Positions 11,227-45,789 are shown, numbered from the stretch's first letter. The stretch is DNA of 64,000 nt from a virus (IMGVR_UViG_3300050510_000109:1-64000), one strand, 5' to 3'. Made by a program: numbers and translations. Notes: generated from the sequence alone by a model not told the origin.

Positions 11227-11516
11227 TTTGCATCTTCATTTGTGTCAAAGCCAAACTTCTGCCACTTCTCGTACAGACGTTGGCGAGATAGCCCGACCAT
11301 ACGAGCGATTACTACGGTTGATAATAGTGGTCGGCAACGCCACAGGAAAGAAAGCATCCTGCGATCATAGTCCTCTAGTGTTTCTCTGTGAGACTCTTTG
11401 AGAACTTTTCTTCCCTCGACCATTGAGGAGATGACAGACTTTAGCTCCTGTGCATTGCTGCTTAATCTGTCGAAGATCTCTTCTTCTACTCTAGTTTCCT
11501 GGTTGCTGGTTATCAT
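11223..11516 (-). CDS. HTH DNA-binding protein
   Basis: STVVIARMVGLSRQRLYEKW HTH pattern. Confidence 0.55.
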   Translation of the reverse strand: MITSNQETRVEEEIFDRLSSNAQELKSVISSMVEGRKVLKESHRETLEDYDRRMLSFLWRCRPLLSTVVIARMVGLSRQRLYEKWQKFGFDTNEDAK

Positions 11517-11754
11517 GAATTTCCAAAACGTTTAAGACATCGGGACGGTAGAACCGGTGATGCCCGCCTGGCGTCTTGAACGACCTAACCTTACTGAATT
11601 GTAGATTTCCCTCAAGCCAGCGGTTCACCGTTCGAGACTTTACTTTGAACAGGTCTGCTACTTCTTTGGGTGTCATCCATTCATCAGGATTAAAGGCATC
11701 AATTAATGGCACTTTTTCATCGTACAGTTTCTCTTCAAAAGTTGGTGCGCTCAC
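11491..11754 (-). CDS. BldC-like / excisionase (MerR-type HTH_17) DNA-binding protein
   Basis: MTPKEVADLFKVKSRTVNRW...FKTPGGHHRFYRPDVLNVL parallels the BldC pattern LTPAEVATMFRVDPKTVTRW...RTLGGHRRY. Confidence 0.75.
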   Translation of the reverse strand: MSAPTFEEKLYDEKVPLIDAFNPDEWMTPKEVADLFKVKSRTVNRWLEGNLQFSKVRSFKTPGGHHRFYRPDVLNVLEIHDNQQPGN

Positions 11755-11776: not shown

Positions 11777-11904
11777 TAGCAGAAGGTTATTCGCGGCTGC
11801 TAGCTTTAGGGAAAATCGGACAAAAAACCCAAAGCGAGCCGAAGAACAGAAACGTTGGCTGATTTCTGCGTTGCCATGAGCGTGGCAACAGTTCCCTTCT
11901 GCTA
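11777..11904 (-). ncRNA. Structured leader/ncRNA upstream of the BldC-like gene
   Basis: TAGCAGAAGG/CCTTCTGCTA closing stem with three internal hairpins; contains TGTCCGATTT. Confidence 0.4.
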
Positions 11905-28374: not shown

Positions 28375-28404
28375 TGTCCGAATTGCGTGGAATTTTTCCG
28401 ATTT
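28375..28404. promoter_or_regulatory. Three 10-bp direct repeats upstream of the RHH-ParB operon
   Basis: TGTCCGAATT-GCGTGGAATT-TTTCCGATTT; same motif as the 37-41 kb zone. Confidence 0.45.
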
Positions 28405-28416
28405 TGCGATCTTAAT

Positions 28417-28447
28417 AAAAAGGACCACCAAAAAGGTGGTCTTTTTT
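28417..28447. terminator. Bidirectional intrinsic terminator
   Basis: AAAAGGACCACC-AAAAA-GGTGGTCTTTTTT. Confidence 0.7.
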
Positions 28448-30102: not shown

Positions 30103-30537
30103 TCACGTAGTATTTGCGCCATCATGGCGCGCAACCGTGCTTCCGTTTCCTTGTCCATTTATCTTCACCATGTACGTCCACAGATGATTGTCAGATTGAA
30201 CAGAAGCCATGATGTCTTCTGGGTCGGTAACGGTATTCATCACGCCCCAATGAGACTGCCATAGCTTGATGAAGTAATCTAGATCTTTCGTTGTCATGAG
30301 TTCTTTCCACCACCAAGCCCTATAGAGCTTTTGTTGGCGTTCCAAGCGCTTGGCATTGCGGTGGTATTTCGTGGCTACAGCCGCGTCACCCTCATGTTTG
30401 TGTCCGTTTATGTGCTTGTGACGTTTGCCTGAACCGGTATTGCAGGTCAGGCAATGCCAAAACCAGTGTCCGTCTTTCTCGTAGTAGTGAGTGACGCATT
30501 CCTCAACAGGAAAATCACTCATCTTTTTCAGCACCAT
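30103..30537 (-). CDS. Hypothetical protein
   Basis: ORF on the coding strand; WHCLTC motif. Confidence 0.5.
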   Translation of the reverse strand: MVLKKMSDFPVEECVTHYYEKDGHWFWHCLTCNTGSGKRHKHINGHKHEGDAAVATKYHRNAKRLERQQKLYRAWWWKELMTTKDLDYFIKLWQSHWGVMNTVTDPEDIMASVQSDNHLWTYMVKINGQGNGSTVARHDGANTT

Positions 30538-30797
30538 CTAAGTCCGCTCCAAACACATTTGACCAATCGGCCAAACTTACAGCTTGGACAAGTAGAGCCG
30601 TCCCTTGCGGTAAAGCCGTGTTGGCCACAATGACCACAGTGGTAACGGACAGGATAACGCTTAGTGCTCATCTTAGCGTCTCCTAACTATTATCTTGTAG
30701 AACGCCTCCTAGATGCGAATCGAACGCACCGCGACGCTACTGCGATCCAATATCTACAGTCGTGCGCCTCGCCAAACCAGCAGGAGTCCCTTCTGAG

Positions 30798-31025
30798 TCA
30801 CCCCTCAGGAGTTATTGCCTCGATATTTTCCGAGTATTGCAAATTTTCATCTCTCACATACGGTAGTTCTTCCATGAAGCTACCGATCTTTTCTGACCTT
30901 TCCATATCACGCTCAAAGGCAATGGCTTGCTCTTTGGTCATGTCTGGATAAGCCTTGCTGCTCAGTGTGCGAGTTATACTAATTGTCTGATTTATCTTAA
31001 TTTGCCAGTCGCGGTTCTCGCTCAT
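30798..31025 (-). CDS. Hypothetical protein
   Basis: TAGGA SD. Confidence 0.5.
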   Translation of the reverse strand: MSENRDWQIKINQTISITRTLSSKAYPDMTKEQAIAFERDMERSEKIGSFMEELPYVRDENLQYSENIEAITPEG

Positions 31026-31034
31026 GTTCCTATC

Positions 31035-31343
31035 CTACACGTAGAATCCAGGATTGTCCACGGCAGTTTTCACCAATGATTGGTGCTGTGCCGTGGTGGT
31101 GGAAAACTTCGTAGTGGGAATAATCCATGTGTCTTTGCTGAGTGCCCACGCAATCGGCGTAGCGTAACTACGGATCACATAAACAGCTTTATCAATGGCG
31201 TGAGCTTCTTTTTTGGGCATACGTCCAAGGTCTACTTTTTCTCCTCGGACGCGCGGCTTACCCGTCAAGCTGCCAACGTTGAATTCAGTCAGGCTGTCAA
31301 TGCCTTTTTGAACCAGCTTCAGTGACTGCTGTCCAAGTGCCAT
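31035..31343 (-). CDS. Conserved phage hypothetical protein
   Basis: YVIRSYATPIAW...FSTTTAQHQ; AAAGGG SD. Confidence 0.6.
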   Translation of the reverse strand: MALGQQSLKLVQKGIDSLTEFNVGSLTGKPRVRGEKVDLGRMPKKEAHAIDKAVYVIRSYATPIAWALSKDTWIIPTTKFSTTTAQHQSLVKTAVDNPGFYV

Positions 31344-31507
31344 GTTAACCCTTTCTTGTGACCAACCAAATCATAATTAAAAAGGTAGCGCATGGGGCAA
31401 TCATTAGTGTCGCCCACACAAACGCCTCTGGCCAATTCATTTTGTTGCTCCTTAATGGTACATGACGACCGACAAGCCTGCAACGGTTTGTCAGCCATCA
31501 TGAAACA

Positions 31508-31801
31508 TTAAACCTCTTCTGGCACCGATCTCAGTTGCCCGATCTTTTCCACCCATAGAGCGGTCAGCTCACGGGCTGTGTGCGAACTGCCAGGACCGGC
31601 CGCAACGTCAAAGCCATACCACATTCCGTTACCGATGTCCAAATCATCTAGACCATAGCCATAGAAGCCGTAAAGCTGCCCCAATAGGCAATCGTGCGGA
31701 TCACCCATATTTAGCGTGTCAAGGTTGATTTCATCGATCCAGTCTGGGTTTGCTTTGTTGAGCTTACGCACGCCGCGCCAGATGAAGAACTTACGTAGCA
31801 T
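31508..31801 (-). CDS. Paralog family member 3 (CxLGQL-G motif)
   Basis: NPDWIDEINLDTL...CLLGQLYG...YGF. Confidence 0.65.
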   Translation of the reverse strand: MLRKFFIWRGVRKLNKANPDWIDEINLDTLNMGDPHDCLLGQLYGFYGYGLDDLDIGNGMWYGFDVAAGPGSSHTARELTALWVEKIGQLRSVPEEV

Positions 31802-32072
31802 TTCGCCTCTTCTCGATTTCGTTTTTCCATGCTTGCTCTAACTCCCCATCGCTCACGGCGATTTGAGAATTGAACCCATAAAAGCACCCTCCACCGAACG
31901 GAATCCGCAATTGGCATAGGCCATTGAAGAAGTCTCCGTACAGTTGCCCGAGAATGCACACGAGGCCATCGGTTATGTCGAGGGTTTCGAGATCTATCTC
32001 ATTTTCCCAGCCTGGCCGGTCGGCATCCAGCAGAGAAATTCCTCTTGTCACACTTTCAACGGTTTTGTCCAT
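31791..32072 (-). CDS. Paralog family member 2 (CxLGQL-G motif)
   Basis: RPGWENEIDLETL...CILGQLYG...YGF. Confidence 0.65.
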   Translation of the reverse strand: MDKTVESVTRGISLLDADRPGWENEIDLETLDITDGLVCILGQLYGDFFNGLCQLRIPFGGGCFYGFNSQIAVSDGELEQAWKNEIEKRRNAT

Positions 32073-32143
32073 TTTATCCGTTCCTCACTTTGCCTGGTGT
32101 TCCCCAATGCTGAGGCCTTTTGTTCCCTCAGCAAAGGGCAAAA

Positions 32144-32431
32144 TCAGGATCGCCGTGCGGTTATTTCCTTGATCCATTCATCACGCAAGTCGGGGTGACT
32201 CGACGCTGAAATTAGATCAGGACAGAAACCCAGATTCACAGCTTGCCCGTGCTGGTTGATAACGTTCATGCCGCGCACAAAGTCTCCAAAGAGTTGGCCA
32301 AGTACGCAGTCAGTTCCGCTGATCAGATCGAGTCTTTCCAGGTCGATCTTAGATTCCCAGCCGGGGTAATAAATGTCCAGGATCTTGCTTCCTCGATCAA
32401 CAGCCTGAGCTGCAAACTGTTGTGATTCCAT
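32144..32431 (-). CDS. Paralog family member 1 (CxLGQL-G motif)
   Basis: YPGWESKIDLERL...CVLGQLFG...LGF. Confidence 0.65.
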   Translation of the reverse strand: MESQQFAAQAVDRGSKILDIYYPGWESKIDLERLDLISGTDCVLGQLFGDFVRGMNVINQHGQAVNLGFCPDLISASSHPDLRDEWIKEITARRS

Positions 32432-32449
32432 TATGCCGACTTTCTTGTT

Positions 32450-32668
32450 TCACTTGGCTGCCATGTAGTATGACACGTCGCCGCGCGCACACATGTAGCA
32501 GGTTATCTTAGGGTTGTTGGCTCGATCCTTCATACAGATACGCTCTTGCGGTTCATAGTGAACAAGGCTCCCTTGATCTTTCAGTTCGAAAGCCTTTACT
32601 CTATCGTAAACGTACCCGATGCTTTCGGTATTCCTCACGAGCCATGCTGGGATCACATGAATTCTCAT
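32450..32668 (-). CDS. Hypothetical protein
   Basis: 4-bp overlap with the upstream gene. Confidence 0.45.
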   Translation of the reverse strand: MRIHVIPAWLVRNTESIGYVYDRVKAFELKDQGSLVHYEPQERICMKDRANNPKITCYMCARGDVSYYMAAK

Positions 32669-32928
32669 GATCCACGTGTCCAGTAGTCATCTGGCAACCA
32701 CTGGAGTTGTACGTTTCGATCCGTTTTCACCAACTCTAGGAACTTCGCTAAGGCATCGACAGTTTCATTGCCGGTTACCTCTTCAAACTTCCACATATCC
32801 AGCGGGCTAGGCCCGTGCGTGCCGATGTACCACTTACCAGGGGATTTCATTTCTTTCATGACTCGACCAACTCTCTTGCGGTTGGTGCCGTTTTGTACAG
32901 GGTAACCCACTTGTATGGGTAACTCCAC
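32665..32928 (-). CDS. Hypothetical protein
   Basis: ORF in operon. Confidence 0.45.
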   Translation of the reverse strand: MELPIQVGYPVQNGTNRKRVGRVMKEMKSPGKWYIGTHGPSPLDMWKFEEVTGNETVDALAKFLELVKTDRNVQLQWLPDDYWTRGS

Positions 32929-33158
32929 AACATCACGTAATTGCCCTGTTCATACAGTCCAGTGAAGCCGGACTCAGGTAGGGGCATTACCTGTGCAGGT
33001 TGGCTCTGCTCTTTTGCGATCTCAATAAGCCGCTTGAGCGCAGCTTTGCGGGTCTTCTCATTGCCGTTAGCGTTGCCTACGGGATAGAGGATATCAAAGA
33101 TTTCTTGAGCTAGCTCACTCCCTACGGCGGTTAGTCGTTTCATGTACATCATTACCAT
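32856..33158 (-). CDS. Hypothetical protein
   Basis: AGAGG SD. Confidence 0.45.
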   Translation of the reverse strand: MVMMYMKRLTAVGSELAQEIFDILYPVGNANGNEKTRKAALKRLIEIAKEQSQPAQVMPLPESGFTGLYEQGNYVMLWSYPYKWVTLYKTAPTARELVES

Positions 33159-33180
33159 TCCTCTAACTAGTTACCAAGAC

Positions 33181-33214
33181 GGTACATATCTACTGAACTC
33201 AGTAGATATGTACC
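33181..33214. other. Perfect 16-bp palindrome/hairpin
   Basis: GGTACATATCTACTGA-AC-TCAGTAGATATGTACC. Confidence 0.55.
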
Positions 33215-33224
33215 ATTTTGATGA

Positions 33225-33443
33225 CTAGTAGTTGGGATGATCCTCGTCTTCGTCATCTTCTTTGCCATTTTCGGACACATGCCACTCAATGTCATCAAAG
33301 ATGCACTCTTGGGCAAAGTCGTCGATAGTGTCCTGTCGTTGCTTTTCGGACATTTCTGCCCATTCCTGGTCGTCTACGTCCAACTCCCAGGTACCACGGT
33401 AGGAGATGTTAGATGACGCTGAGTAGTTGATTAAGATCTTCAT
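33225..33443 (-). CDS. Acidic hypothetical protein
   Basis: GAGAGG SD; D/E-rich. Confidence 0.55.
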   Translation of the reverse strand: MKILINYSASSNISYRGTWELDVDDQEWAEMSEKQRQDTIDDFAQECIFDDIEWHVSENGKEDDEDEDHPNY

Positions 33444-33542
33444 TGCAACCTCTCATCTCACTTTTTCCTAAACGTGCAAGAATGGCCATAAACCTGATTG
33501 TATGTCCGTTTATGTATACGGTTTATGGCCAAACTAACGCAT

Positions 33543-33962
33543 TTAGTTACAGTCTGCCGCGATCTCTTGCAAGGCTTCCGCTACATACTCGTCTGCCTGC
33601 TCATCGGGCAAGCCGCTGAGCCATTGGTAAAGCAGAGAAAGCCCATCGAACAGGGTAGCTTCGCGCTTACCTACCTTGAGTTGACAAAGTAGATGAAACG
33701 CATCCATTGCCGTCTTTGGTGGACTTTCCTCGATGACGATACCGGGAACCAGGATCTTTAGCGGTTCCGGCACGCCTGCGAGCTTTTCCGCGTCCTGCGC
33801 GGTAAGTACAATTACCCTGGCGTTTCGTGGGTAAAGGACGTTTCCGCTTCTGGACTCACGGACCTTAGGCCGGGCCTCATCATATCCGGGAGCTTCGAGA
33901 ACTTCGCCGGTAAGCGTGATTCCCATGCCGTTTGTCCATTCAACCATGTCGCCGGTCTTCAT
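33543..33962 (-). CDS. Hypothetical protein
   Basis: AAGGA SD. Confidence 0.55.
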   Translation of the reverse strand: MKTGDMVEWTNGMGITLTGEVLEAPGYDEARPKVRESRSGNVLYPRNARVIVLTAQDAEKLAGVPEPLKILVPGIVIEESPPKTAMDAFHLLCQLKVGKREATLFDGLSLLYQWLSGLPDEQADEYVAEALQEIAADCN

Positions 33963-34103
33963 ATTCCCGTCCTTTAGAATTCGCCAGTATTGACCACGCC
34001 TCGACCTTTACAGGCTGTACAGGTTGTTTCTTCGTATGTCTTCTTTTTCGGATTCCATGCAGTTACTGTCTTATTGCCTTTACAGTACTGACAAACAACG
34101 TTT

Positions 34104-34499
34104 CTACCCATTTTGTTTCCAATCTTGCGGCAACTCTCCCTTGCTGGCTAGAGAGTCCAACGCCTCGAATCGCTGCACCCATGAGGGCGGCAATTTGTCT
34201 TGCGCTTCTAGCTTGAGAGCGTTTGCGTATGCACGGATCTTACGCAGGATTTCGTCTGGACTTTCGTCGGCAGAGGGTTCCGGTACCCGTTGCAGGTCCA
34301 CAATTCGGCCTGCCTTAGATAGGAACACCTGAACCTCGCCCGTTATTCCCTCGATCCCATACACGAACGATTGATCTGACTGCGTTGTGAACGTGCTGGC
34401 GTTGTCGAATCCTACCTCATATCGGGGATTGCCGTTGACACTGTTCTTAAGCCGATTGAGGCGGGTGATTGTCGCTGTGAACGCGTACCGTTTTGCCAT
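34104..34499 (-). CDS. Hypothetical protein
   Basis: GGGAG SD; NSVNGNPRY motif. Confidence 0.55.
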   Translation of the reverse strand: MAKRYAFTATITRLNRLKNSVNGNPRYEVGFDNASTFTTQSDQSFVYGIEGITGEVQVFLSKAGRIVDLQRVPEPSADESPDEILRKIRAYANALKLEAQDKLPPSWVQRFEALDSLASKGELPQDWKQNG

Positions 34500-34806
34500 T
34501 TTCGATCACTCCCTTGAGATATTTCCGGATAAGCAACCGTTTGTAGTTTTCTAGCTGAATTGCGTCTATTGCGTCACAAAGGGTGATTCCGCCATCTTTA
34601 TCATGGATCTCGACGGATTTCATCTTTGTGTCCAATTCGTCCAGAACTGCTAGGGCAAACCATATGAGAGTACGCTTAGGCACAATCCATTGAAGTTTGC
34701 AGGCAATTCTAGAGAATATCGGGAACTTATACTTTCGTCCCATTTCGTCGCCTTTCTGATGGTTCAAGACGATACACCACTTTTGTGATGCATCATCTAA
34801 AAACAT
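34447..34806 (-). CDS. Hypothetical protein
   Basis: ORF on the coding strand; start probably internal (MGRKYKF). Confidence 0.4.
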   Translation of the reverse strand: MFLDDASQKWCIVLNHQKGDEMGRKYKFPIFSRIACKLQWIVPKRTLIWFALAVLDELDTKMKSVEIHDKDGGITLCDAIDAIQLENYKRLLIRKYLKGVIENGKTVRVHSDNHPPQSA

Positions 34807-35246
34807 CAGGGAATGCGCAGGTGTGCCAGGCTTTCGCTGTTATCGTCCGATTCGTCCTTATACCTGAGGATGCCTACCTGCTCGGCGTGCTCATCACGCC
34901 ACGCGAGTTGTTCGGCCGAATAGCCGTCGAAATACTCGCTGTCTGTGTCGCCATCTTGCAAGGTGAAGAAACCCAGTGCCGTTGCTGCGACGCTGTCAAC
35001 GTCCGACCATTCCGGTGCGGCGATCCTCTCATCAAAAAGGATCTCAGCTTTACTGACCGGCCAGAACATCAATGCACGCCAGAGTTTTTTGTGATCTGAA
35101 TCGTACTCTTGCAAATCCTGAACGACCAGCAAGCCGACCGGACCCTCAAGATACGGCTCTAGCTTGTAGAATTCCGAGTTTTTCACTTTTCCTCCCAATC
35201 GGTACATAAATGTGTACTTTGCGAGAGCTAGATCTGCTTTATCCAT
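34806..35246 (-). CDS. Hypothetical protein
   Basis: TAGGA SD. Confidence 0.55.
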   Translation of the reverse strand: MDKADLALAKYTFMYRLGGKVKNSEFYKLEPYLEGPVGLLVVQDLQEYDSDHKKLWRALMFWPVSKAEILFDERIAAPEWSDVDSVAATALGFFTLQDGDTDSEYFDGYSAEQLAWRDEHAEQVGILRYKDESDDNSESLAHLRIP

Positions 35247-35312
35247 TTTGTCCGTTTCCTAACTAATGTTCCAAGAAGGTGTGTATCAGTGGATACACAC
35301 CAACTAAGCACA

Positions 35313-35519
35313 TTAGTCCGATTTGCGGAATTCCTGAGTCAATTCATCTAAAAGGTTGTCCGGCAGCAATCGCCAGTATGCTTTTGCCAAGTCATCCCAA
35401 TGAATGAGGTTGAACAGCGCGTCTAGCGCTTCGATTGCCCCATCAGTGAATTGAACGGTCACTAGTTCAGGTTGTAGGTCTTGAGAATCCCAGTCGTTTT
35501 CCATGTCTCCATTGTACAT
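35313..35519 (-). CDS. Acidic hypothetical protein
   Basis: ORF in operon. Confidence 0.45.
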   Translation of the reverse strand: MYNGDMENDWDSQDLQPELVTVQFTDGAIEALDALFNLIHWDDLAKAYWRLLPDNLLDELTQEFRKSD

Positions 35520-35525
35520 CGCGTT

Positions 35526-35726
35526 TCAGATACCGCCAAGCTTTTTCACGATGATTTCAATAACGTCTGCGCCTTCCACGTCGAAATCCTGAATGTATGT
35601 GTGGATATGGTATTTACAGGTGTAATCGTCCGTGTTGGTGGTTCCGGCGTCGGCCCAGCGGTCATCTAGTGTGTAAATGACATCGACGTAGTGACTCGCG
35701 GTTCTGTCGCATTTAATGCACTTCAC
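35526..35726 (-). CDS. Small zinc-binding protein
   Basis: CIKC...CKYH; GGGAGGG SD. Confidence 0.55.
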   Translation of the reverse strand: MKCIKCDRTASHYVDVIYTLDDRWADAGTTNTDDYTCKYHIHTYIQDFDVEGADVIEIIVKKLGGI

Positions 35727-36280
35727 AATTTCCCTCCCTTTTGCATTTTCCCAGCCTGCACCCGTATCCTAGGATGCTCGCCACATAGTAAATCAAACAT
35801 AAGTGCAGGTCAAGCCACGATTGGACCGTTCGTAGATTCACCAACATTGATGTTCTAAAACTCGCTGACCTGTGCTGATCCTTTTTCCTCTTTATTATAG
35901 AGCGCGGCTACCTGATAGACGATCATGGGTCGATCAATCGCTTTCGATCCGAAACCGTGGTGTCCTACTCCAGTGTACACCACTGTCACCCCCAATCCAA
36001 AATAAAACTTAAGTTATTTTATTTCATGTAATGTCGGAATATTAACACTTATACGAGGTTAGGGTACCCTGCAAAGACATAGACGGTTACAAGATAATCT
36101 TCTATTCTGGTCAGGGCCGGTCCTTTTTTCCCCACTGAAAGATCAATCCCACTATGTGGACAAAAAGTTAGGGTGACCTTAGTTGAGAGTCGAAACTAAA
36201 TGGTGATCAAGGCGGGCGCCTGCGGCGCGGTCGCGGCGCTGCGCGCCACTCTTATCTAGTTGCTCGTTCCACTTAGGTAT

Positions 36281-36447
36281 AGAGAAAAAGGGATCAGGAT
36301 CTTGACGGGGCGATGAGCTGGTGAAAGGTTGATTGGTGATAGTGGAGGGTATCGATGTGATCTTGGTGAGTTGGCGCTGAGCTGCGGGTATGTGTTTCGG
36401 GTGAAGTTGATCTCTTTTGGTCTATAATACAGAGAAAAAGGGATCAG
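36281..36447. repeat. 17-bp direct repeat, 150 bp apart
   Basis: AGAGAAAAAGGGATCAG at 36281-36297 and 36431-36447. Confidence 0.7.
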
Positions 36448-36537
36448 AGCTGATCAGATGGTGTTAGTGGACTATGTTTGGTAGACTATGTGGGTTTTGG
36501 GTGTGACCAGGGGAGATGTTGCCTCCCCTGATCGGGG

Positions 36538-36999
36538 TTAGTCGATGGTTAATTGTCCGTATTTGGTCAGGATGGCGGCAATCCACATGAGTTGTCGCTC
36601 TCCGTGGGGGGTGACGACGAAAGCCGGGCCGGTGCGGGTCGTGCGGCAGGGCTGGCCCACGTCGGCTTTGCAGCGTCTACAGGGCACCTCTCGCAGGCTG
36701 GCAGCGTGGCGCAGTAGTTCGGCCATGCCTGCCAGGGTTCGGGGCGCTACCGGCGTGCTGGGTGCCTCGGGCGCGGTGGGCTCGATGGCCCACTCGATGG
36801 CGTGCAGGAGTCGATCATGTGTGCCCTGGCGGATCTCGATCATGTTTGAGGCGATCAGTCGATCAAGCGTTTGTTGACCATGGTTGATTCTGATCAAGGC
36901 TTCGCTGCACCAAGGGTGAGAGGAGATGTAGTCCCACGCGGCAAGCATGCGTTTGCCGGGCCGTAGTGGACGCTGAGCGCTGTTGATCTCGTTTTGCAC
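36538..36999 (-). CDS. Zinc-finger domain protein
   Basis: VPCRRCKADVGQPCRTT...H; GAAGG SD; more GC-rich than its neighbours. Confidence 0.55.
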   Translation of the reverse strand: MQNEINSAQRPLRPGKRMLAAWDYISSHPWCSEALIRINHGQQTLDRLIASNMIEIRQGTHDRLLHAIEWAIEPTAPEAPSTPVAPRTLAGMAELLRHAASLREVPCRRCKADVGQPCRTTRTGPAFVVTPHGERQLMWIAAILTKYGQLTID

Positions 37000-37433
37000 A
37001 GTCGTGTCTACCTTCGCTGTTGATATTGGTTAGGGACGCCCTGAGCGGGTACACCCATGTTGACCAGTATACACGCTGTAATACACAAGTGTACACACCC
37101 GCACACACGCCTTGATCAAAAAGCGTTTTGCCTGGCCACCGGAATTTTCGAGTTTTCGCGATCTATGTAAATAGATCTATGCCCTAGATCATAATCATTT
37201 CATGATCATCTGTTCCGGCTGAATCCACGCAATTGCCACAAATCGTGACAAATCCGACAATCCTCACAAATCGGACATTTGCCCTAGATCACCTAATGTC
37301 AGGACAAAATAGGACAAACACCCATACCCCATGACCGATGCTGATCAACTAGGACCAGCCGGTCATGGGGTACAAAATGCTACAAATCCGGACATATACG
37401 TACATACCCGGACATAGACCACCTTACTACGGT

Positions 37434-37685
37434 TTATAGCCTGATCAGCGGATATTGGTTAATATGGATGAATTCGATCGCTATTGCGGAGAATGTCCGA
37501 GTTCTCCCTTCAGAGTCGATACCGTCGAACTGTCCCCAAATGTCCGGTTCGCCCAGAGCTACGCAGTAACGCTCGTTTTGGGTGTCGAAGACCGTTCCGA
37601 GCGTAATGCCTGACTCGTGCTGTTCGGGCTGAATGTCCGGTTTCTCCCGGAATGGCTTCAATGGGTCATAAGGCATGTTCGTCAC
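37434..37685 (-). CDS. Hypothetical protein
   Basis: 4-bp overlap with the upstream ORF. Confidence 0.45.
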   Translation of the reverse strand: MTNMPYDPLKPFREKPDIQPEQHESGITLGTVFDTQNERYCVALGEPDIWGQFDGIDSEGRTRTFSAIAIEFIHINQYPLIRL

Positions 37686-37894
37686 ATCCGGACGTATTGT
37701 CCGTCTTGCCCGATGAATACCCTTTGTCCGTTTCTGTTACGAAACATCTCAAAGAAGCCGGTAAAGTTGGTTCCGGTCGATTTGGAGTGTTTGTCCGTAG
37801 TCGCGGGCATATGGCACGGTAGCGGCCATTTTGTCGGCACACGCTCCTCTTGGGACTTTTGCTCCACATAGCGCATTTCTTCATAGAAGTTCAT
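37682..37894 (-). CDS. Hypothetical protein
   Basis: ORF in the repeat zone. Confidence 0.4.
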   Translation of the reverse strand: MNFYEEMRYVEQKSQEERVPTKWPLPCHMPATTDKHSKSTGTNFTGFFEMFRNRNGQRVFIGQDGQYVRM

Positions 37895-38196
37895 CTATTG
37901 TCCCGTCCGTCCGTTTTGGGATACACGCCCGATATGCGCTATATTGACCTAGATCTATGCACTTATAGACACTCATCTCTGGAATTCGTACGATTAAGCG
38001 ATCTAAATGCATGGATGGATGGATCATTGATCTTATTTCAGTCAATATCCGCATATCGTAGTGTTTGACCGATTTGTCCTACTTGACCCATTTCTGGGTG
38101 GTATGCACTACTATGCGCAGTAAGGTGGCCTATGACTGGGTATGTTCTACTTTGTCAGCATGGGTGGCTTATGCGTGCCATGTCCGGTTTAGGATA

Positions 38197-38499
38197 CTAT
38201 CCGCCAATAAGCAGGTCTCGCACCAATTCGCCGTGTTTGCGCCATCTGACCAGTTTGCTCAGTTCGTCCTGTGTGCCCAGTTCGACGCATCTGACGTAGT
38301 TTAGGGCGAAAGCTTCCACGGTGTCCCATTTGTCATAATGTGCCTGCCATAGGGTGTATGCGTGGTCTAGGACGTAACCTCCCACACTGGGCGAATCCCA
38401 CCGAAATGTGCTGAAACGGTTGGATGTGTCCGACTGTGCGGCTTTGATGAACGTTTGGACGAATTGGACCAGATCGACGCTTTTGTCCGAATTTGTCAT
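38197..38499 (-). CDS. Hypothetical protein
   Basis: 4-bp overlap with the upstream ORF. Confidence 0.45.
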   Translation of the reverse strand: MTNSDKSVDLVQFVQTFIKAAQSDTSNRFSTFRWDSPSVGGYVLDHAYTLWQAHYDKWDTVEAFALNYVRCVELGTQDELSKLVRWRKHGELVRDLLIGG

Positions 38500-38780
38500 G
38501 ATTGGGCCGCCTTGTCGCGCATCGCCTTAATCATCCCAGATGTCAGAACTACGACATCATCCCACGTTCGGGCGCTTTGTCCGTATTCAGCGTTAAATGC
38601 CTTAATTGTCCAACCTTTGCGCGGTTCGAAGGCATATTTACGCATATAGCCGGTAGTGCGCCAATAGTGCAGTCTTGCGATGGCTTGTACGGCTCTGACG
38701 TTTTCCTCACCAGAGATCACGATTGTCTCGTTTGACATGACATGTCCTATCTGTCCGATTTGGATGATATGTGTGGACAT
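38496..38780 (-). CDS. Hypothetical protein
   Basis: ORF in the repeat zone; start uncertain. Confidence 0.45.
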   Translation of the reverse strand: MSTHIIQIGQIGHVMSNETIVISGEENVRAVQAIARLHYWRTTGYMRKYAFEPRKGWTIKAFNAEYGQSARTWDDVVVLTSGMIKAMRDKAAQS

Positions 38781-38885
38781 GGCACGTATGAGCCAACCAT
38801 ACTGATTTGGGTAGATACAGCAGCTTTTATCCGGACATGTCCGCTTTGTTACGCTATTGTCCTAGATGTCCGATTTGTAGCTTAT

Positions 38886-39161
38886 TTACCTTGTTTCGTA
38901 CTTTCGGGCGAGCGCAGCGTCGTGGTGTGCTTGCTCCACAAATGTCCGCTCGTGTCCGTGATCGTGGTCATGTACGTGATTGTCCGGATTGTCCTGTTCT
39001 GCCACGAATTCGCCGAATTGCTCCAGAAAGATGGCGTATGCCCGATGTAGCAGGTCTTGCGCCTCATCGACCAGTTTGACGTGTTCGCCCGCTTTGCGCG
39101 CTAGGAGCAATTTGCGGAACATGTCCAGATCGCGCTCTATGGTCGATGTGTTGTGAGCCAT
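38886..39161 (-). CDS. His-rich hypothetical protein
   Basis: Internal ATG (MAHNTS) of ORF-track 38886-39509; HVHDHDHGH. Confidence 0.35.
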   Translation of the reverse strand: MAHNTSTIERDLDMFRKLLLARKAGEHVKLVDEAQDLLHRAYAIFLEQFGEFVAEQDNPDNHVHDHDHGHERTFVEQAHHDAALARKYETR

Positions 39162-40475
39162 GGCTTGCGCGACAGTTGCGGTATTTTGTCCGGCTCGTAC
39201 TTCCATGATACACATTATGGCTTTTCTCCCTCTATGTCCGATTTTGTAGTACTTTGAACGGACATGTCCAGATAGAAGCTGCTGTGTCCCGATATCCAAC
39301 CATTGCCCGCCATGTCCGGTTTGGTACCTCTCGTCACACTTTGTGGCGAGTTGTCCCCCGTTAAGGGGTTTGTGCCGGAATGGGAGGGTTAGTGTGTCAT
39401 GCCCAACATGAGCAGAATGGGCGATTTCTCCAAAATGACCAAAGCTGCCGCATGTAGGCTGACAAGGGTGAGAATGTGCGTTGCGTGGTGAGTTGCCACC
39501 CTTGCACACCTACGTCCGATTTGGCTGGCTTTGGGGTGATTGCGCGGAGCTTCGTGCTTGCCCATGATTGTCTCCAATGTCCGATTTTGCACTGGTTGGG
39601 TGTATTGTCGGACATGGCGAGTAATGGCTGGATATCAGGGGATATGTCGCAATCGTGGTGCTCTGACCCAACATGCCGTATTTGTGCTAGTTGTCCGATT
39701 CTTCCGGCTTGGGCTTTGTGGCCACCTCTGAGGCAATAATCCCAGAGATCACAAGTGCGGTAATGATGACGATTTCCACGGGATTCTCCTAAATGTCCGA
39801 ATTGTCAGGTATGCACCAAGTATCGTCTTCGACCTGTCTGTACTGTCCGTCCACAAACACGAACAATAGCCCGAATATCAGGATTGTCAGGTTTATGCCT
39901 ACTTGTCCGATTTGTCCTACAACGTGCATTCCGGCCAGATTGTGGACGGTTTGGGCTAGATCGCGTGCAATCCAGCTAGAATCATCCATATTGGACCATA
40001 AATGCGCATATACGTCGGTATGGGGGTTTTGCGCCAGCACGTGCGGTTTAGGTACGTACATGACTTACGCCCCGGTATCAGGTGAGTTGTCCGGAATGTA
40101 GCAGAGTGCGAAGATTGATGCCTTTGGCGTCACTTCGACCCCTATGTGACAACTTTCCGTTCCGAGAACTATGCCCGAATTGTCCGACCCGTTGTAGAAC
40201 GTCACGAAGAATGCCAGTATGACCAGAAGAATCACGATATGCTCCCTTATGTCCGATTATGCCCGTATATACACCCCTATCTAATATTTTGTCCGATTTC
40301 ATGATCGCGGGCTCCGGAATTTTCGGACTTTTGCGATCTATTATACTAAATAGGGGTACCTCAGGTCATTTCCGGACATGTCAGGCCAAAGCACCATGAA
40401 TGCGACATATCCTACCCAGCTACGACATACTAGGACAAAACCCGACATGTACGGACATGTCCGATTTTTCCGAAA

Positions 40476-40712
40476 TTAGACGCTTATGCCCCATGTCAGC
40501 TCAACGTACGCTATAACGGCATCTTCCTCGTTATCGTACGATTTAGCGGATATTTCGGACTCGCCGGAACTGTCCCATTCTACTACGTTAAAGTACTCTT
40601 TGTCCGGCAATTCGTACATTGTCACGGTATTTCCGGACATGTCGTACTTATACGCATCTGCTACGATACGTCCGTGATCGTGCATTTGTCCGACTTTGTG
40701 CTGACTTGTCAT
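40476..40712 (-). CDS. Acidic hypothetical protein
   Basis: AGGGAG SD; YDMSGN...ELPD. Confidence 0.5.
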   Translation of the reverse strand: MTSQHKVGQMHDHGRIVADAYKYDMSGNTVTMYELPDKEYFNVVEWDSSGESEISAKSYDNEEDAVIAYVELTWGISV

Positions 40713-40852
40713 TACTTCTCCCTAAATGTCCGTTTTTGTCCGGACATGTCGAGATTTGTCCCAGTATGTCTAGCCATTTCGTGACAAAGGGTAATTTCTT
40801 GCAACTTATCCTGATGCATCCAGATATGCCGGGATATGTCCGATTTTTCTAC

Positions 40853-41179
40853 TTAAATCCCAACAATTCCGTACGAATCGGAATTATCGGTTATTTTGAG
40901 AATTATCGGCTCATTTCCGACATCTTCCCCATTTTCGTCTACTTCCAGACATTTCAGGACATGGGTGACAATTACGACATCTCCGGGTTTTTCCTGATAT
41001 GTGGTAACTGTCATGATTTCGTACTCTTTGTCCTGATATTGCAGGTAATATCCGATTTGGGGGAGATATCCCAGATTAACCCCTAAGTACGTGTTTTTCC
41101 CGAAATATGCGGGAATTTCCGGCAATTCCTCATTTGAGATGAGATTTCCGGACTTGTCGTACATAGTGTCATATGCCAT
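40853..41179 (-). CDS. Acidic hypothetical protein
   Basis: AAGGGG SD before MAYD; YDKSGN...ELPE. Confidence 0.5.
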   Translation of the reverse strand: MAYDTMYDKSGNLISNEELPEIPAYFGKNTYLGVNLGYLPQIGYYLQYQDKEYEIMTVTTYQEKPGDVVIVTHVLKCLEVDENGEDVGNEPIILKITDNSDSYGIVGI

Positions 41180-41883
41180 GGTATGTCCCCTTATGTCCGT
41201 TTTTATCCTGATTTGTACGGACATACCCCGACATAACCGGATACATCAGGATTTTCCCGTCATTCCACGGAAAATCCGCCTTTGTCCGATTTATCCACTC
41301 TTTAGTTCTCAAAGGACCATTTTGTGCATTTTTCGGACATTTCCTGTATGTCCGTTTTTCCCCTTTTGCCCCCTTTCGCCGCTTCCTACCTATATTATAC
41401 TGCGAGCTAAGTCGACTAAGTCTATCGTACCAAATCCGGACATATCCCCATATAGCGGGACAGGCATATCCGCATATATCCAGATAAATCGGACATATCA
41501 GCCTATACCGGAAGTTGATCTGTGACGTGCGACACACCACTATATCCGGATATAGTGTATATATCCCCATATGTCCGATTTATACCCCCTTACAAGATCA
41601 CCGCGGGGGTGATCTTGACCTATTATCCTCTTATTTCGTATAAATCCTGACAAATCGGACATATCGTATTTAAGCTGAAAAAAGGTAAAAAACTATATTA
41701 AAAATGATAAATCGGAAATGTCGGAATTTGGCGTCTGTCTTTTACATCGAGTTTCGTTTTTATACTTGGTTAAGTTAGTAATCTTAGTAATTTTAGTCGT
41801 TTTTCCTATTAGCGCATTAAGTACCAACATAGTCAACCTAGTACACACTATCCAATTGCCAATTCATCCTTTACACTCATGTC

Positions 41884-42612
41884 ATGACCGATCAAATCCA
41901 ATCTATCCAGCCTAAAGTTCAGATTGCATATATACATGGAGACTTCGTCTCGCACAGCTTTCATCACAGCATTATGGCTCTGTCAAATTCACCCAATGCA
42001 TCTCAGCTATATACCAAAGAACACATCTCAGCTCTCTCCGATGCTATGAGCATTCCGGAATCACGTAATGCCTTGATGAATTACTTCCTGGACGCTACCG
42101 ATGCCACCCACATTTTCTGGATCGACACAGATATGGGCTTTGCCCCCGACACTGTAGAAAAGCTACTGGAGACTGGCAAGGACGTGATCGGAGCTTTGTG
42201 CAAGGGATTGAGCAAATATCAAACAGATGGGTACGGAGGCTATCTCACCAAGGAATTTATTACTGCATACGATTTAACTCAGTACAAAGTTGGCGATTCA
42301 GATGACAGGCAAGATTTCATCGCTTTCACTTTAAAGCAGGACCTAGATCTTGACTCGGGTGAGCTGATATCAGTCGCCGCCACTGGTACGGCCGCTCTGT
42401 TGATCTCACGGGACGCTGCGTACCGTGTGCGCAACTTCTACGGCTCGCGCTTCTTTGAGCGCATCCAGATGCGCGACCCTGACCCCAAAGTTCGACCTCA
42501 CATTATCAGTGAGGACTTGAGTTTCTGTTACCGTCTGGCGACTGTGGGAATCCCAGTGTTCATACATCCTAAAGTGGTTACTACACATGCCAAGACTGTG
42601 TGGCTACAGTGA
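41884..42612 (+). CDS. Glycosyltransferase (GT-A fold)
   Basis: ESRNAL, HIFWIDTDMGF DxD motif, ATGTAALLISR, SEDLSFCYRL. Confidence 0.75.
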   Translation: MTDQIQSIQPKVQIAYIHGDFVSHSFHHSIMALSNSPNASQLYTKEHISALSDAMSIPESRNALMNYFLDATDATHIFWIDTDMGFAPDTVEKLLETGKDVIGALCKGLSKYQTDGYGGYLTKEFITAYDLTQYKVGDSDDRQDFIAFTLKQDLDLDSGELISVAATGTAALLISRDAAYRVRNFYGSRFFERIQMRDPDPKVRPHIISEDLSFCYRLATVGIPVFIHPKVVTTHAKTVWLQ

Positions 42613-44364: not shown

Positions 44365-45789
44365 ATGGAGCGGCAACGGGTAGTCAGCAAGAGTAAGTTT
44401 TTCAATATGATTGGCTACCAACCGCATGCCCGGCAGGTGGAATTCCACAAGAGCAAGGCGCGGTTCAAGGTTGCTGCGTGTGGTCGTCGGGCGGGCAAGA
44501 CTTTTATGACTGCGAAGGACATCGAGCCGTTCCTCTTTGTTCCGGATAAGCGTATTTGGCTTGTCGGCCCGACTTATGTGCTTGGTGAAAAAGAGTTCCG
44601 AGTCATTTGGCAAGACATCATCATGAAGCTGGAGTTCGGTAAAGACCCGGAGGTAAAGAAGGCATATAACCTCAAGCAAGGTGACATGTTCATCGAGTTC
44701 CCGTGGGGAACAAGAGTTGAGGTGAGATCTGCCGAGCGTAAAGAGACTTTGGTTGGTGATGGACTTGACCTGGTGGTGATGTGCGAGGCGGCAAAACACC
44801 AGCGCGAGACGTGGGACCGCATGATTGAGCCTGCGCTGTCCGACAAGCGTGGTGGCGCGATATTTACCAGTACCCCAGAAGGGCAGAATTTCTTTTATGA
44901 TTTGTGGCAGCGTGGTCTGGACGACACTGAGCCGGATTATGAATCCTGGCAGTACCCGAGTTGGGACAACAGTGTAATTTTCCCCGGCGGATTTGAAGAC
45001 TCTGAGATCCAGCGCCTACGCCGCAACATGTCTCGGGATGCATTTGAGCAAGAAATTGCTGCGGACTTCACCAGCTTTACCGGTAAGATCTACAAGGAGT
45101 TCATGGAGCGCACTCATGTGCGTAACCACGAGTACCGGCCAGATTGGCCAAACTTCATGTCGATCGACTTCGGCTTCGTGAACCCGCTGGCTGCAATTGA
45201 ATTCCAAGTGAGCCCACAAGATACTGTCCACGTCTGGCGGGAGTACTACGAGCCACAGTTGACCCTGGACGAGCACATGCAAGCCTGGAGGGAGCGAGAG
45301 AATCCTACAGGTTATAACATTGATTTGATTTTCGGAGATGCCGCTGACCCCGAGGCGATCCAAGATATTTGCATTAAGTTCGGTCCATGTGTAGGCGACC
45401 CGCTGAGCAAGGAAAATTGGCGTGAGGGAATTGATCTGGTCAAAACGTTCCTCAAGAATAGGGGCGGTGGAGTACCAGGGTTCTATGTTGACCCAAGTTG
45501 TCGAAACACCATTCGGGAATTCAACAATTATAAGGCTGCTGAAGGCGGTAAGGACCGAGATCCACGCGAGCAGGCCAAAAAGTGTGAAGACCATGCTATG
45601 GATGCTATTCGATACGGTATTATGCACGTGTTTAAACTCGGCATGCGCGTACGCCTTGCTGATGTTATGGACGAATCCGAATTGAAAACAGGACTTTCGG
45701 ATAGTGGCTTTTTCACGCAAGACATCAGGGATAGATACCCTGCACTGTCCGGTGCCGGATTTGTCACCCTTGATGATGCTAGGTTCTAG
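44365..45789 (+). CDS. terL: Terminase large subunit
   Basis: ACGRRAGKT Walker A, VMCEAA Walker B, FTSTPEG, SIDFGF nuclease, EDHAMDAIRY. Confidence 0.92.
   Translation: MERQRVVSKSKFFNMIGYQPHARQVEFHKSKARFKVAACGRRAGKTFMTAKDIEPFLFVPDKRIWLVGPTYVLGEKEFRVIWQDIIMKLEFGKDPEVKKAYNLKQGDMFIEFPWGTRVEVRSAERKETLVGDGLDLVVMCEAAKHQRETWDRMIEPALSDKRGGAIFTSTPEGQNFFYDLWQRGLDDTEPDYESWQYPSWDNSVIFPGGFEDSEIQRLRRNMSRDAFEQEIAADFTSFTGKIYKEFMERTHVRNHEYRPDWPNFMSIDFGFVNPLAAIEFQVSPQDTVHVWREYYEPQLTLDEHMQAWRERENPTGYNIDLIFGDAADPEAIQDICIKFGPCVGDPLSKENWREGIDLVKTFLKNRGGGVPGFYVDPSCRNTIREFNNYKAAEGGKDRDPREQAKKCEDHAMDAIRYGIMHVFKLGMRVRLADVMDESELKTGLSDSGFFTQDIRDRYPALSGAGFVTLDDARF

What the first reader, a model, noticed from the sequence alone, without database searches (positions are those of the whole stretch)
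37240..41700. 4.4-kb zone coated with ~10-bp-phased TGTCCGAWTT repeats between the divergent genome arms
Seen in sequence: about 53 TGTCCG/CGGACA hexamers by manual count (about 2 expected), in both orientations and also inside ORFs. Phasing is helical. In 40681-40780, seven of ten consecutive decamers end in TGTC and the other three in TGTG, TCTC and TTTC. GACA recurs at 40424, 40434, 40444 and 40454. A reverse-strand run of five 9-10-bp units lies at 37241-37280. The perfect palindrome CGGACATGTCCG occurs at 38832 and 40452. Inference: a protein polymerises head-to-tail along this DNA to form a nucleoprotein filament, at what may be the genome end, terminal repeat or origin. Candidates are the BldC-like protein or the ParB-like proteins (a parS/centromere role).
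Basis: partly seen in the sequence, partly recalled or inferred. Interest (0 to 1): 0.85.

Follow-up and report, generated by a model that had tools for sequence, protein, structure and literature searches.

The report
Phage early genes in RNA stalks
The repeat-rich zone is the first 4.5 kb of an uncultured phage's early operon: each small gene is enclosed by its own co-evolving RNA helix built around one shared 8-base box, and extra copies of that box run through the genes in 9-10-base phase, which points to an undescribed way of cutting out and controlling early phage messages.

Summary
There are exactly 53 TGTCCG/CGGACA hexamers in 37272-41661 (about 2 expected), with strong 9-10-base phasing, and both palindromes are present.

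The zone is not a genome end, origin or centromere. It is the promoter-proximal part of the leftward early operon of a 72-kb circularly assembled phage. Two signals built from one unit (sense strand AAAWCGGACA) are superimposed.

1. Seven private inverted-repeat pairs each enclose one cistron or a small group of cistrons.
- In 91 such stems from 15 related contigs, 28 positions are 93% Watson-Crick, with all four pair types at variable positions.
- Sporadic mismatches are G.U 99 times and A.C 20 times on the sense strand.
- A dyad-symmetric C.A/A.C double mismatch sits 7-10 bp from the conserved 8-bp box helix.
- These are therefore RNA leader-trailer stalks. I infer they are RNase III-type processing sites.

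2. Generic sense-oriented boxes lie before Shine-Dalgarno sites and inside ORFs in all three frames, in head-to-tail phase (143 sense against 18 antisense). A protein reads them. A BldC-type winged helix on DNA is my first guess and an RNA reader the second.

The phage's own BldC-like gene is missing from complete relatives that have the densest boxes.

This scan has noted "genes in loops" in other phages before. I found no published description.

The parts
37240..41720 (-). Promoter-proximal segment of the leftward early operon: about 11 small ORFan genes arranged as 7 stalk-bracketed cassettes, with 53 core boxes
   Evidence: None of the 10 ORF products tested has a Pfam hit, and none of the four tested has a PHROG hit.
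40808..41252 (-). Cassette I2. 5' arm 41252-41218, 3' arm 40842-40808. Encloses gene 41179-40853 (108 aa). Shine-Dalgarno-proximal box at 41194.
   Evidence: Cognate duplex energy -60.2 kcal/mol. 30 Watson-Crick pairs and 4 G.U pairs on the sense strand.
40424..40770 (-). Cassette I4. 5' arm 40770-40737, 3' arm 40457-40424. Encloses gene 40712-40476 (78 aa). Shine-Dalgarno-proximal box at 40727. The ten-decamer run 40681-40780 consists of the start of the ORF, the Shine-Dalgarno box and the 5' arm.
   Evidence: The minimum-energy fold of 40420-40775(-) contains the stalk, z = -6.6.
39640..40412 (-). Cassette I3. 5' arm 40412-40377, 3' arm 39675-39640. Encloses genes 40235-40065, 40061-39789 and 39779-39687, plus a promoter-like ATGACC-18-TATAAT at 40369-40340.
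39291..39636 (-). Cassette I10. 5' arm 39636-39609, 3' arm 39318-39291. Encloses gene 39565-39389 (58 aa). Shine-Dalgarno-proximal box at 39578.
   Evidence: Fold z = -6.9. 5 compensatory pair changes against the G001 orthologue.
38814..39288 (-). Cassette I11. 5' arm 39288-39259, 3' arm 38843-38814 (contains the palindrome at 38832). Encloses gene 39215-38886 (109 aa).
38155..38805 (-). Cassette I9. 5' arm 38805-38775, 3' arm 38185-38155. Encloses genes 38738-38496 and 38499-38197. Carries the C.A/A.C double mismatch.
   Evidence: 7 compensatory changes against G001.
37402..38145 (-). Cassette I1. 5' arm 38145-38116, 3' arm 37431-37402. Encloses genes 37894-37682 and 37685-37434.
41253..41883 (.). 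Divergent control region. It has a TATAATATAG on the minus strand (-10-like hexamer at 41398-41392, conserved in G002). Box copies here point rightward at 41437, 41490 and 41656.
   Evidence: The promoter assignment is an inference.
37241..37280 (+). Run of four to five 9-10-bp units at the distal edge of the cassette array, antisense to the leftward operon
11491..11754 (-). BldC-family winged-helix protein (87 aa)
   Evidence: NCBIfam HTH_BldC scores 54.8 bits, below the curated cutoff of 77. The best PDB match is BldC 6AMA, E = 3e-6, with R30, K36 and H46 conserved and K26 replaced by R.
11813..11822 (-). The only exact TGTCCGATTT outside the zone, 60 bp upstream of the BldC-like gene. G001 has the same arrangement.
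28375..28420 (-). Third copy of a promoter-like element (-10-like sequence, then GATCGCAAAA, then three phased units including AATTCGGACA), upstream of the small-ORF/ParB_N operon. The other copies are at 40310-40352 and 37135-37175.

Best explanation
The zone is the start of the phage's leftward early operon. It carries two superimposed codes built from one 10-nt unit (sense strand AAAWCGGACA).

Code 1 is shown by covariation.
- Every early cistron, or small group of cistrons, is enclosed by a private 28-30-bp leader-trailer helix formed in the sense RNA.
- The 8 bp next to the loop are the shared box, (C/U)AUGUCCG paired with CGGACAU(G/A).
- Seven to ten bp further out lies a dyad-symmetric double mismatch: C.A, then two Watson-Crick pairs, then A.C.
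- The rest of the helix is cassette-specific.
- Arms of neighbouring cassettes abut, with 2-37 nt between them in G000 and overlap in some relatives. There is no room for promoters between most cassettes, so they must be co-transcribed.
- I infer that a host double-strand-specific RNase of the RNase III type cuts at the double mismatch. The spacing of the two mismatches fits a cut staggered by 2 nt. Cutting would release monocistronic early mRNAs whose 5' and 3' ends stay clamped by the box helix.

Code 2 is shown statistically; its reader is inferred.
- Further generic copies of the unit are almost all in the sense orientation.
- They stand in head-to-tail phase of 9-10 nt.
- They lie 0-5 nt before Shine-Dalgarno sites, inside ORFs in all three frames, and just after promoter-like -10 boxes.
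- They show no cassette-specific pairing and no wobble-type substitution pattern, so a protein reads them.
- My first choice is a BldC-type winged-helix protein that oligomerises on the DNA and tunes or shuts off the early operon. It would be host-encoded, with a phage paralogue in the G000 subclade.
For: Code 1:
- An inverted-repeat scan finds such pairs essentially only in the zone: 9 of the 11 in G000, none in nine control 6-kb segments at a Watson-Crick-only threshold, and none in G004, which lacks boxes.
- Cognate arm duplexes score -46 to -60 kcal/mol and non-cognate ones -11 to -30.
- In 91 anchored stems from 15 contigs, positions -22 to +5 are 93% Watson-Crick, with 4 pair types at variable positions.
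- G.U outnumbers A.C by 99 to 20 on the sense strand (p = 5e-14).
- C.A occurs at -10 in 51 of 91 stems, A.C at -7 in 56 of 91, and both in 45 of 91.
- Homologous G000 and G001 stems differ by 27 two-sided and 16 one-sided pair changes.
- Whole-cassette folds contain the stalk, z = -6.6 and -6.9.

Code 2:
- In 103 cassettes the ORF bodies hold 143 sense and 18 antisense boxes, with 6.5 expected per orientation.
- The ORF-internal sense boxes in G000 fall in frames 0, 1 and 2 at 2, 10 and 7.
- GACA lags inside ORF bodies are 9 (53), 10 (16), 18-20, 27-29, 36-39 and 45, and about 0 in between.
- 44% of in-phase neighbours are box-like, against 3.5% out of phase.
- 31 gene starts carry a box, then 0-5 nt, then a Shine-Dalgarno site.
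- The unit fits the BldC determinants: an AT tract, a C-G pair at position 9, and a TpG step on the other strand.
- A BldC-like gene carries its own upstream box.
- Three phased units follow each of three promoter-like -10 elements.
Against: - No RNA ends or cleavage data exist, and the host, and therefore its RNase III, is unknown.
- No phage RNase III was found.
- Cassette I3 contains a promoter-like site downstream of its 5' arm. Transcripts starting there would lack that arm.
- For code 2, an 8:1 sense bias is more natural for an RNA reader than for a DNA coat.
- The phage BldC-like gene is absent from complete relatives rich in boxes.
- The BldC consensus is loose enough that its authors call sites unpredictable.
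- Genome GC of 42-48% is unusual for hosts known to have BldC (own knowledge).
- Runs in G000 are mostly doublets.
Confidence: 0.55

Rival explanations
1. The generic sense boxes are read on the RNA, not the DNA. The reader would be a sequence-specific RNA-binding protein or endoribonuclease. It would recognise CGGACAU next to Shine-Dalgarno sites and along early messages, and would stabilise, coat or (as T4 RegB does at GGAG) inactivate early mRNAs at the switch to later expression. The stalks are as in the best explanation.
For: - The boxes show an 8:1 sense bias confined to the early operon.
- A box lies 0-5 nt 5' of the Shine-Dalgarno site at 31 starts.
- The same box is the keystone of the RNA stalk.
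- No clade-specific phage DNA-binding protein co-occurs with the boxes.
- The box is invariant across the clade.
Against: - A 9-10-nt head-to-tail phase with a conserved A-tract is the known signature of winged-helix filaments on DNA. To my knowledge no bacterial or phage RNA-binding protein has this signature.
- Boxes pointing the other way lie upstream of the leftward -10 and upstream of the BldC-like gene.
- Three phased units sit just downstream of promoter-like -10 elements.
Confidence: 0.25
2. The whole zone is a DNA-only nucleoprotein filament site (terminus, terminal repeat, origin or parS-like centromere), coated by the phage BldC-like or ParB-like protein.
For: - Enrichment and helical phasing are real.
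- The unit resembles the BldC repeat.
- The phage encodes both BldC-like and ParB_N proteins.
Against: - The zone is densely packed with small ORFs, most with Shine-Dalgarno sites, conserved in G001.
- The inverted copies covary as RNA with a sense-strand G.U excess.
- The BldC-like gene is absent from G002, G008 and G009.
- There is no 16-bp parS-type palindrome.
- The terminal overlap of the assembly lies elsewhere.
Confidence: 0.07
3. The stalks form in RNA but are not cleavage sites. They act as end-clamps or insulators. They would protect each cistron from exonucleases, from Rho or from interference by neighbouring cistrons' translation, or they would time translation through competition between the local hairpin (5'-arm box with the Shine-Dalgarno-proximal box) and the long-range helix.
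For: - The stalk evidence is the same as above.
- 69 of 103 cassettes have a sense box within 50 nt after the 5' arm, most often 6 nt after it. That makes a 7-8-bp local hairpin which competes with the stalk.
Against: - A 28-30-bp near-perfect duplex is a canonical RNase III substrate (own knowledge).
- A conserved dyad-symmetric double mismatch is hard to explain without a dimeric enzyme or protein that reads it.
Confidence: 0.2
4. The inverted repeats are DNA-level cassette ends: terminal inverted repeats of mini-mobile elements, or split palindromic recombination sites as in an integron-like array.
For: - Cassettes are gained, lost and swapped between relatives while stalk halves persist. 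For example, the G001 stalk at 56828 combines the G000 I2 outer half with an I4-like inner half.
- Arms abut at cassette junctions.
Against: - Sense-strand G.U outnumbers A.C by 99 to 20, and the strand-asymmetric conserved mismatches indicate a single-stranded sense molecule.
- Arm sequences are private to each cassette.
- No tyrosine integrase was found in five complete genomes.
- There is no conserved core at the outer junctions.
Confidence: 0.04

Closest known systems
RNase III processing stalks of bacterial rRNA operons (leader-trailer helices around 16S and 23S), and RNase III sites between T7 early genes (own knowledge)
   Same: - Sequences flanking a functional RNA pair over hundreds of nucleotides into a duplex longer than 20 bp.
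- One helix per unit sits in a polycistronic precursor.
- Internal mismatches occur at a defined place in the helix.
   Different: - Here the enclosed units are protein-coding cistrons, 7-12 in a row.
- The T7 sites are local hairpins between genes, not helices around genes.
- All stalks share an 8-bp box and a C.A/A.C double mismatch.
- Cleavage is not shown.
BldC of Streptomyces, and related winged-helix filament formers (lambda Xis, RdfS, D29 gp36)
   Same: - The sites are head-to-tail direct repeats of 9-10 bp.
- The unit has an AT tract, then 4 bp, then C-A.
- The phage protein 11491-11754 is the closest match to BldC in the PDB and keeps its contact residues.
   Different: - There are hundreds of units across a 4.5-7 kb operon, instead of 2-4 at a promoter.
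- The units show a strong sense bias and sit inside ORFs.
- The protein scores below the NCBIfam cutoff.
- The gene is missing from several box-rich relatives.
- Binding is untested.
Start-associated sequences and start-associated inverted repeats of actinobacteriophages (Cluster K SAS/ESAS; Cluster EG and O 17-18-bp repeats)
   Same: - A conserved short motif lies immediately upstream of many start codons in one arm of the genome.
- It is conserved between phages whose flanking DNA has diverged.
   Different: - The sequence is different.
- Here the motif is also phased inside ORFs.
- Here it also forms part of long-range, cassette-specific helices, which were not reported for those clusters.
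Stoperators of Cluster A mycobacteriophages (L5 gp71 sites; own knowledge)
   Same: Asymmetric sites occur many times, oriented one way relative to transcription.
   Different: - Stoperators are 13 bp, unphased, spread genome-wide in intergenic gaps, and tied to an immunity repressor.
- No tyrosine integrase was found here.
PeSL modules of T4-type phages (promoter-early stem-loop cassettes; own knowledge)
   Same: Each small early ORFan gene carries a repeated regulatory module, and the cargo genes are shuffled between relatives.
   Different: PeSL is a promoter plus a local stem-loop that is identical between modules. Here the helices are long-range, private to each cassette, and co-vary.

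Membership tests
RNase III leader-trailer processing stalk | Duplex of at least about 20 bp formed by sequences flanking the released RNA | tested here: met
   The helices are 28-30 bp and enclose 64-1031 nt (median 288).
RNase III leader-trailer processing stalk | Pairing maintained by selection in the transcribed strand | tested here: met
   All four Watson-Crick pair types occur at variable positions. There are 27 compensatory changes between G000 and G001. Sense-strand G.U outnumbers A.C by 99 to 20.
RNase III leader-trailer processing stalk | Staggered double-strand cleavage by RNase III | not testable with these tools
   No RNA-end data are available and the host is unknown. No phage RNase III was found.
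BldC family (NF033787) transcriptional regulator | Score above the curated family cutoff | tested here: not met
   The score is 54.8 bits against a cutoff of 77. It is still the best-scoring family, E = 6e-15.
BldC family (NF033787) transcriptional regulator | Small MerR-like winged helix without a dimerisation coiled coil, with DNA-contact residues R30, K26, K36 and H46 | tested here: met
   The protein has 87 aa. In the alignment to 6AMA (E = 3e-6), R30, K36 and H46 are kept and K26 is replaced by R. There is a 4-residue insertion before the wing.
BldC family (NF033787) transcriptional regulator | Cooperative head-to-tail binding to 9-10-bp direct repeats | not testable with these tools
   Only the DNA side was seen: phased units that fit AATT-N4-C-A.
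ParB/parS centromere | Palindromic parS sites (about 16 bp) bound by the adjacent ParB | tested here: not met
   The unit is asymmetric. Its palindromes are junctions of stalk arms. The zone lies 9 kb from the ParB_N gene 27252-28145.
Genome terminus / terminal repeat | Zone at the physical ends or duplicated at both ends | tested here: inconclusive
   The contig closes on itself with a 132-bp overlap at 1/72320, far from the zone. Physical ends cannot be read from an assembly.
Actinophage start-associated sequence (Cluster K type) | Conserved motif directly 5' of many start codons | tested here: met
   8 of 11 starts in G000 and 31 in four genomes carry the motif. The sequence is unrelated to the published SAS, so this is an analogy and not membership.
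Integron-like cassette array | Tyrosine integrase and local attC hairpins after each cassette | tested here: not met
   PF00589 gives no hit in five complete genomes. The arms flank the ORF rather than forming a local hairpin.

The most novel reading that the evidence does not exclude
One 10-nt word serves at two levels. On the DNA or the nascent RNA, it forms a phased assembly track that runs through the coding sequence of every early gene, for a protein that polymerises directionally. In the RNA, it is the keystone of a standard socket: box helix, double-mismatch cut site and private outer helix. Any early gene can be plugged into that socket and then excised. Together these would be a sequence-encoded timer and processing system for a phage early operon, with no described counterpart.
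Probability: 0.2. Interest if true: 0.9.

Novelty: new variant of a known kind. Interest (0 to 1): 0.8.

Why it matters
- If the stalks are processing sites, this clade shows that phages can package each early gene the way bacteria package rRNA. The conserved double mismatch predicts the cut position to the nucleotide.
- At least 15 contigs and about 100 cassettes are available here, and this scan has noted similar layouts in unrelated phages.
- That would explain how rapidly exchanged ORFan early genes keep uniform expression. It would also offer a natural plug-in expression socket.
- The phased, sense-biased boxes written over coding sequence in all three frames are a strong unexplained constraint. 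Finding their reader would reveal a new control point of early phage development.

Tried and rejected
- Megablast of the zone against 50,697 phage records gave no match. The terminase is only 32-34% identical to Arthrobacter and Microbacterium phage terminases.
- Rfam at E <= 1 gave no family in 36500-42500.
- The phage BldC-like protein as the universal reader was rejected: it is absent from complete genomes G002, G008 and G009.
- A phylogenetic profile for a clade-specific reader gave one real ORF present in all 8 box genomes and absent from G004 (53840-54364). Its Atlas hits, which are weak, point towards a virion-type protein.
- My first G.U test looked null (47 against 44). This was because two conserved A.C positions were included. 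With them removed the sense-strand bias is clear.
- ORF-internal and Shine-Dalgarno-proximal boxes as alternative cassette-specific partners of the 5' arm were rejected: cognate and non-cognate complementarity beyond the box are equal.
- A wobble-type substitution spectrum in degenerate phased units was not seen.
- Sigma-70 promoter scan: 13 found against 10.6 expected, so it is uninformative.
- The 10 zone ORF products tested have no Pfam domain, and the four tested have no PHROG hit.
- No WhiB, phage RNase III or tyrosine integrase was found.
- The word-based homologue search for the BldC-like protein returned the window's own protein and two close relatives, so the host could not be inferred.
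- Three literature searches found no description of per-gene long-range stalks in phage mRNAs.

Full report
**Context**

- The window is the first 64 kb of a single 72,451-bp contig. The contig's ends overlap by 132 bp, so it is a circular assembly. GC is 48%.
- Long ORFs run on the minus strand from about 41.2 kb down to 0.2 kb, continuing from 72.4 to 65.7 kb. They run on the plus strand from 41,884 to 65.7 kb and include terminase at 44365-45789, portal and capsid.
- The terminase is 32-34% identical to those of Arthrobacter and Microbacterium phages. Nothing similar at the DNA level exists among 50,697 phage records.
- The finding therefore lies at the head of the leftward, non-structural arm, next to the divergent control region.

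**Observation**

There are 53 hexamers in 37272-41661 (38 TGTCCG on the + strand, 15 CGGACA), against 47 in the other 68 kb and about 2 expected.
- Only the in-zone copies share the extension (a/t)TGTCCG(a/g/t)TTT.
- The TGTC autocorrelation peaks at 9-10, 19-20, 28-30 and 37-41 and is near zero between the peaks. Simulations give 0.14 per lag.
- The ten decamers at 40681-40780, the four GACA at 40424-40454, both palindromes and the run at 37241-37280 are as described.
- In this genome most phased runs are doublets and the longest has five units.

**What lies in the zone**

- About eleven minus-strand ORFs of 30-109 codons lie here, most with a Shine-Dalgarno site. Eight of them have CGGACA(T) 0-5 nt before it.
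- The 10 ORF products tested have no Pfam domain, and the four tested have no PHROG hit. Several are 35-56% identical to ORFs in relative G001.

**Relatives**

- The terminase fetched IMG/VR contigs. An alignment-based scan gave 80 more loci.
- The same hexamer is the most enriched word on the coding strand, in the same syntenic position, in G001, G002, G003, G005-G009 and others. It is not enriched in G004.

**Discovery 1: private inverted repeats around each gene**

- The repeat finder showed that the best inverted pairs in the zone each flank one gene or a small gene group, and that their arms abut in the intergenic gaps.
- Cognate arms give duplex energies of -46 to -60 kcal/mol, non-cognate arms -11 to -30.
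- A genome-wide scan finds such pairs essentially only in the zones of G000-G003 and G005, and none in G004. Chains of up to 12 occur in further relatives.
- I anchored 91 stems from 15 contigs on the conserved inner end.
  - Positions -22 to +5 are 93% Watson-Crick, and all four pair types occur at the variable positions.
  - Outside two special positions, non-Watson-Crick cells on the sense strand are G.U 99 times and A.C 20 times (p = 5e-14). The scan itself treated the two strands alike.
  - Position -10 is C.A in 51 of 91 stems and position -7 is A.C in 56 of 91. Both occur together in 45. They flank two pairs that are Watson-Crick in 90 and 88 of 91 stems.
- Homologous G000 and G001 stems differ by 27 two-sided and 16 one-sided pair changes.
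- Whole-cassette RNAs fold with the stalk in the minimum-energy structure, z = -6.6 and -6.9.
- A strand-specific wobble excess and a strand-asymmetric conserved mismatch cannot be properties of duplex DNA. The helix therefore forms in the sense transcript.
- No Rfam family matches.

**Inference from discovery 1**

- Neighbouring arms are 2-37 nt apart in G000 and overlap in some relatives. Cassettes therefore have no room for their own promoters and must be co-transcribed.
- A 28-30-bp duplex is a classical RNase III substrate (own knowledge).
- The two mismatches are related by a dyad and separated by two pairs. This is the geometry of a cut staggered by 2 nt made by a dimeric enzyme.
- I therefore infer processing into monocistronic mRNAs whose ends stay clamped by the 13-16-bp inner helix. 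This step is not shown.
- The phages encode no RNase III and no tyrosine integrase. The enzyme would then be the host's, and an integron-like DNA mechanism is unlikely.

**Discovery 2: generic sense boxes**

- Stalk arms account for 12 of the 53 hexamers in G000 and Shine-Dalgarno-proximal boxes for 8. Of the rest, 20 lie inside ORFs, 19 of them sense, in frames 0, 1 and 2 at 2, 10 and 7.
- In 103 cassettes, ORF bodies hold 143 sense and 18 antisense boxes, with 6.5 expected per orientation. 69 cassettes have a sense box within 50 nt after the 5' arm, most often 6 nt after it.
- These boxes have no cassette-specific complementarity to the 5' arm beyond the box. True 3' arms do.
- GACA inside ORF bodies is fourfold enriched. 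Its lags are 9 (53), 10 (16), 18-20, 27-29, 36-39 and 45, with almost nothing between. The logo shows neighbouring units on both sides, so the unit is GGACAAAWC repeated head-to-tail.
- 44% of in-phase neighbours of a box match it at 4 or more of 6 positions, against 3.5% out of phase. Their substitutions show no wobble pattern.
- A protein therefore reads them, rather than base pairing.

**Who reads the boxes?**

- The unit fits the BldC determinants: a four-base AT tract, guanines in the middle, a C-G pair at position 9, and a TpG step on the other strand.
- The 87-aa product of 11491-11754 has BldC as its best match both in the PDB and in NCBIfam, and keeps R30, K36 and H46.
- The only exact 10-mer outside the zone lies 60 bp upstream of that gene in G000, and about 90 bp upstream in G001.
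- Three promoter-like elements at 40340, 37163 and 28411 are each followed by three phased units.
- Against this:
  - The gene is present only in the G000, G001, G006 and G007 subclade. It is absent from complete G002, G008 and G009, which have more boxes.
  - The box is invariant across the clade.
  - No clade-specific phage DNA-binding protein emerged.
  - The BldC consensus is admittedly loose.
  - An 8:1 sense bias fits an RNA reader better.
- I rate a DNA reader of BldC type (host-encoded, with a phage paralogue in one subclade) at about 0.5, an RNA reader at about 0.3, and something else at about 0.2.

**Comparison with what is known**

- The stalks work like rRNA leader-trailer helices. 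They differ from T7's local inter-genic RNase III hairpins (own knowledge).
- The box before start codons belongs to the loosely defined class of start-associated motifs of actinophages, which have no assigned function.
- Three literature searches found no description of per-gene long-range stalks in phage messages.
- After I had reached this reading, the scan's own notebook showed that other agents had noted "genes in loops" in at least eight unrelated phages. Those are unchecked AI notes on other DNA and are not evidence here.
- New in this case are the shared box keystone, the conserved double mismatch, and the phased sense boxes inside ORFs.

**Verdict**

- The terminus, origin and parS ideas are not supported.

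Noticed in passing
window 40310-40352, 37135-37175, 28380-28420 (minus strand): A promoter-like element occurs three times in G000 and in similar form twice in G006: a -10-like box, then GATCGC(A/G)AAA, then TCCGAAAATTCCGG-like phased units. It is absent from the G002 subclade. The copy at 28411 follows a terminator hairpin and precedes the small-ORF/ParB_N operon.
   Followed up: partly
G002 about 79,750-79,900 (locus L013), minus strand: Just downstream of a conserved TATAATATAG lies a non-coding tandem array of more than 12 nine-base units (GGGACATAT-like, with stop codons in the array). This gives G002 a strict 9-nt period (lags 9, 18, 27, 36, 45).
   Followed up: partly
window 26000-37200: Sense-biased boxes continue at lower density for about 10 kb beyond the zone (12 sense, 4 antisense), fading with distance from the operon head. 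No bias is seen in the distal left arm or the right arm.
   Followed up: partly
window 35876-35903 / 36419-36446: One more long-range inverted pair (24 of 28 Watson-Crick) lies outside the zone. It lacks the box and may be a divergent stalk around the next gene.
   Followed up: no
window 53840-54364 (+): This 174-aa protein is conserved in all eight box-bearing genomes and absent from G004. It sits in the structural module in G000 and G001, but is the first rightward gene next to the zone in G002, G003 and G005. Its Atlas hits, which are weak, point to a virion-type protein.
   Followed up: partly
window 16095-17711 and 6420-23406: A Ro60/TROVE protein with a vWA domain (E = 7e-61) and 13 tRNA genes lie in the left arm. 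Other notes of this scan describe Y-like RNAs here. Ro60 is shared with G001 and G002.
   Followed up: no
G001 56828-57193 against window 40424-41252: The first G001 stalk joins the outer half of the G000 I2 stalk to an I4-like inner half, and encloses the I4 gene orthologue. G000 I9 and G001 59750 share the inner half of their stalk but enclose unrelated cargo. Cassettes therefore seem to be exchanged within stalks.
   Followed up: partly
genome 1-132 and 72320-72451: A 132-bp exact overlap of the contig ends indicates a circular assembly. IMG/VR nevertheless lists the record as linear.
   Followed up: yes
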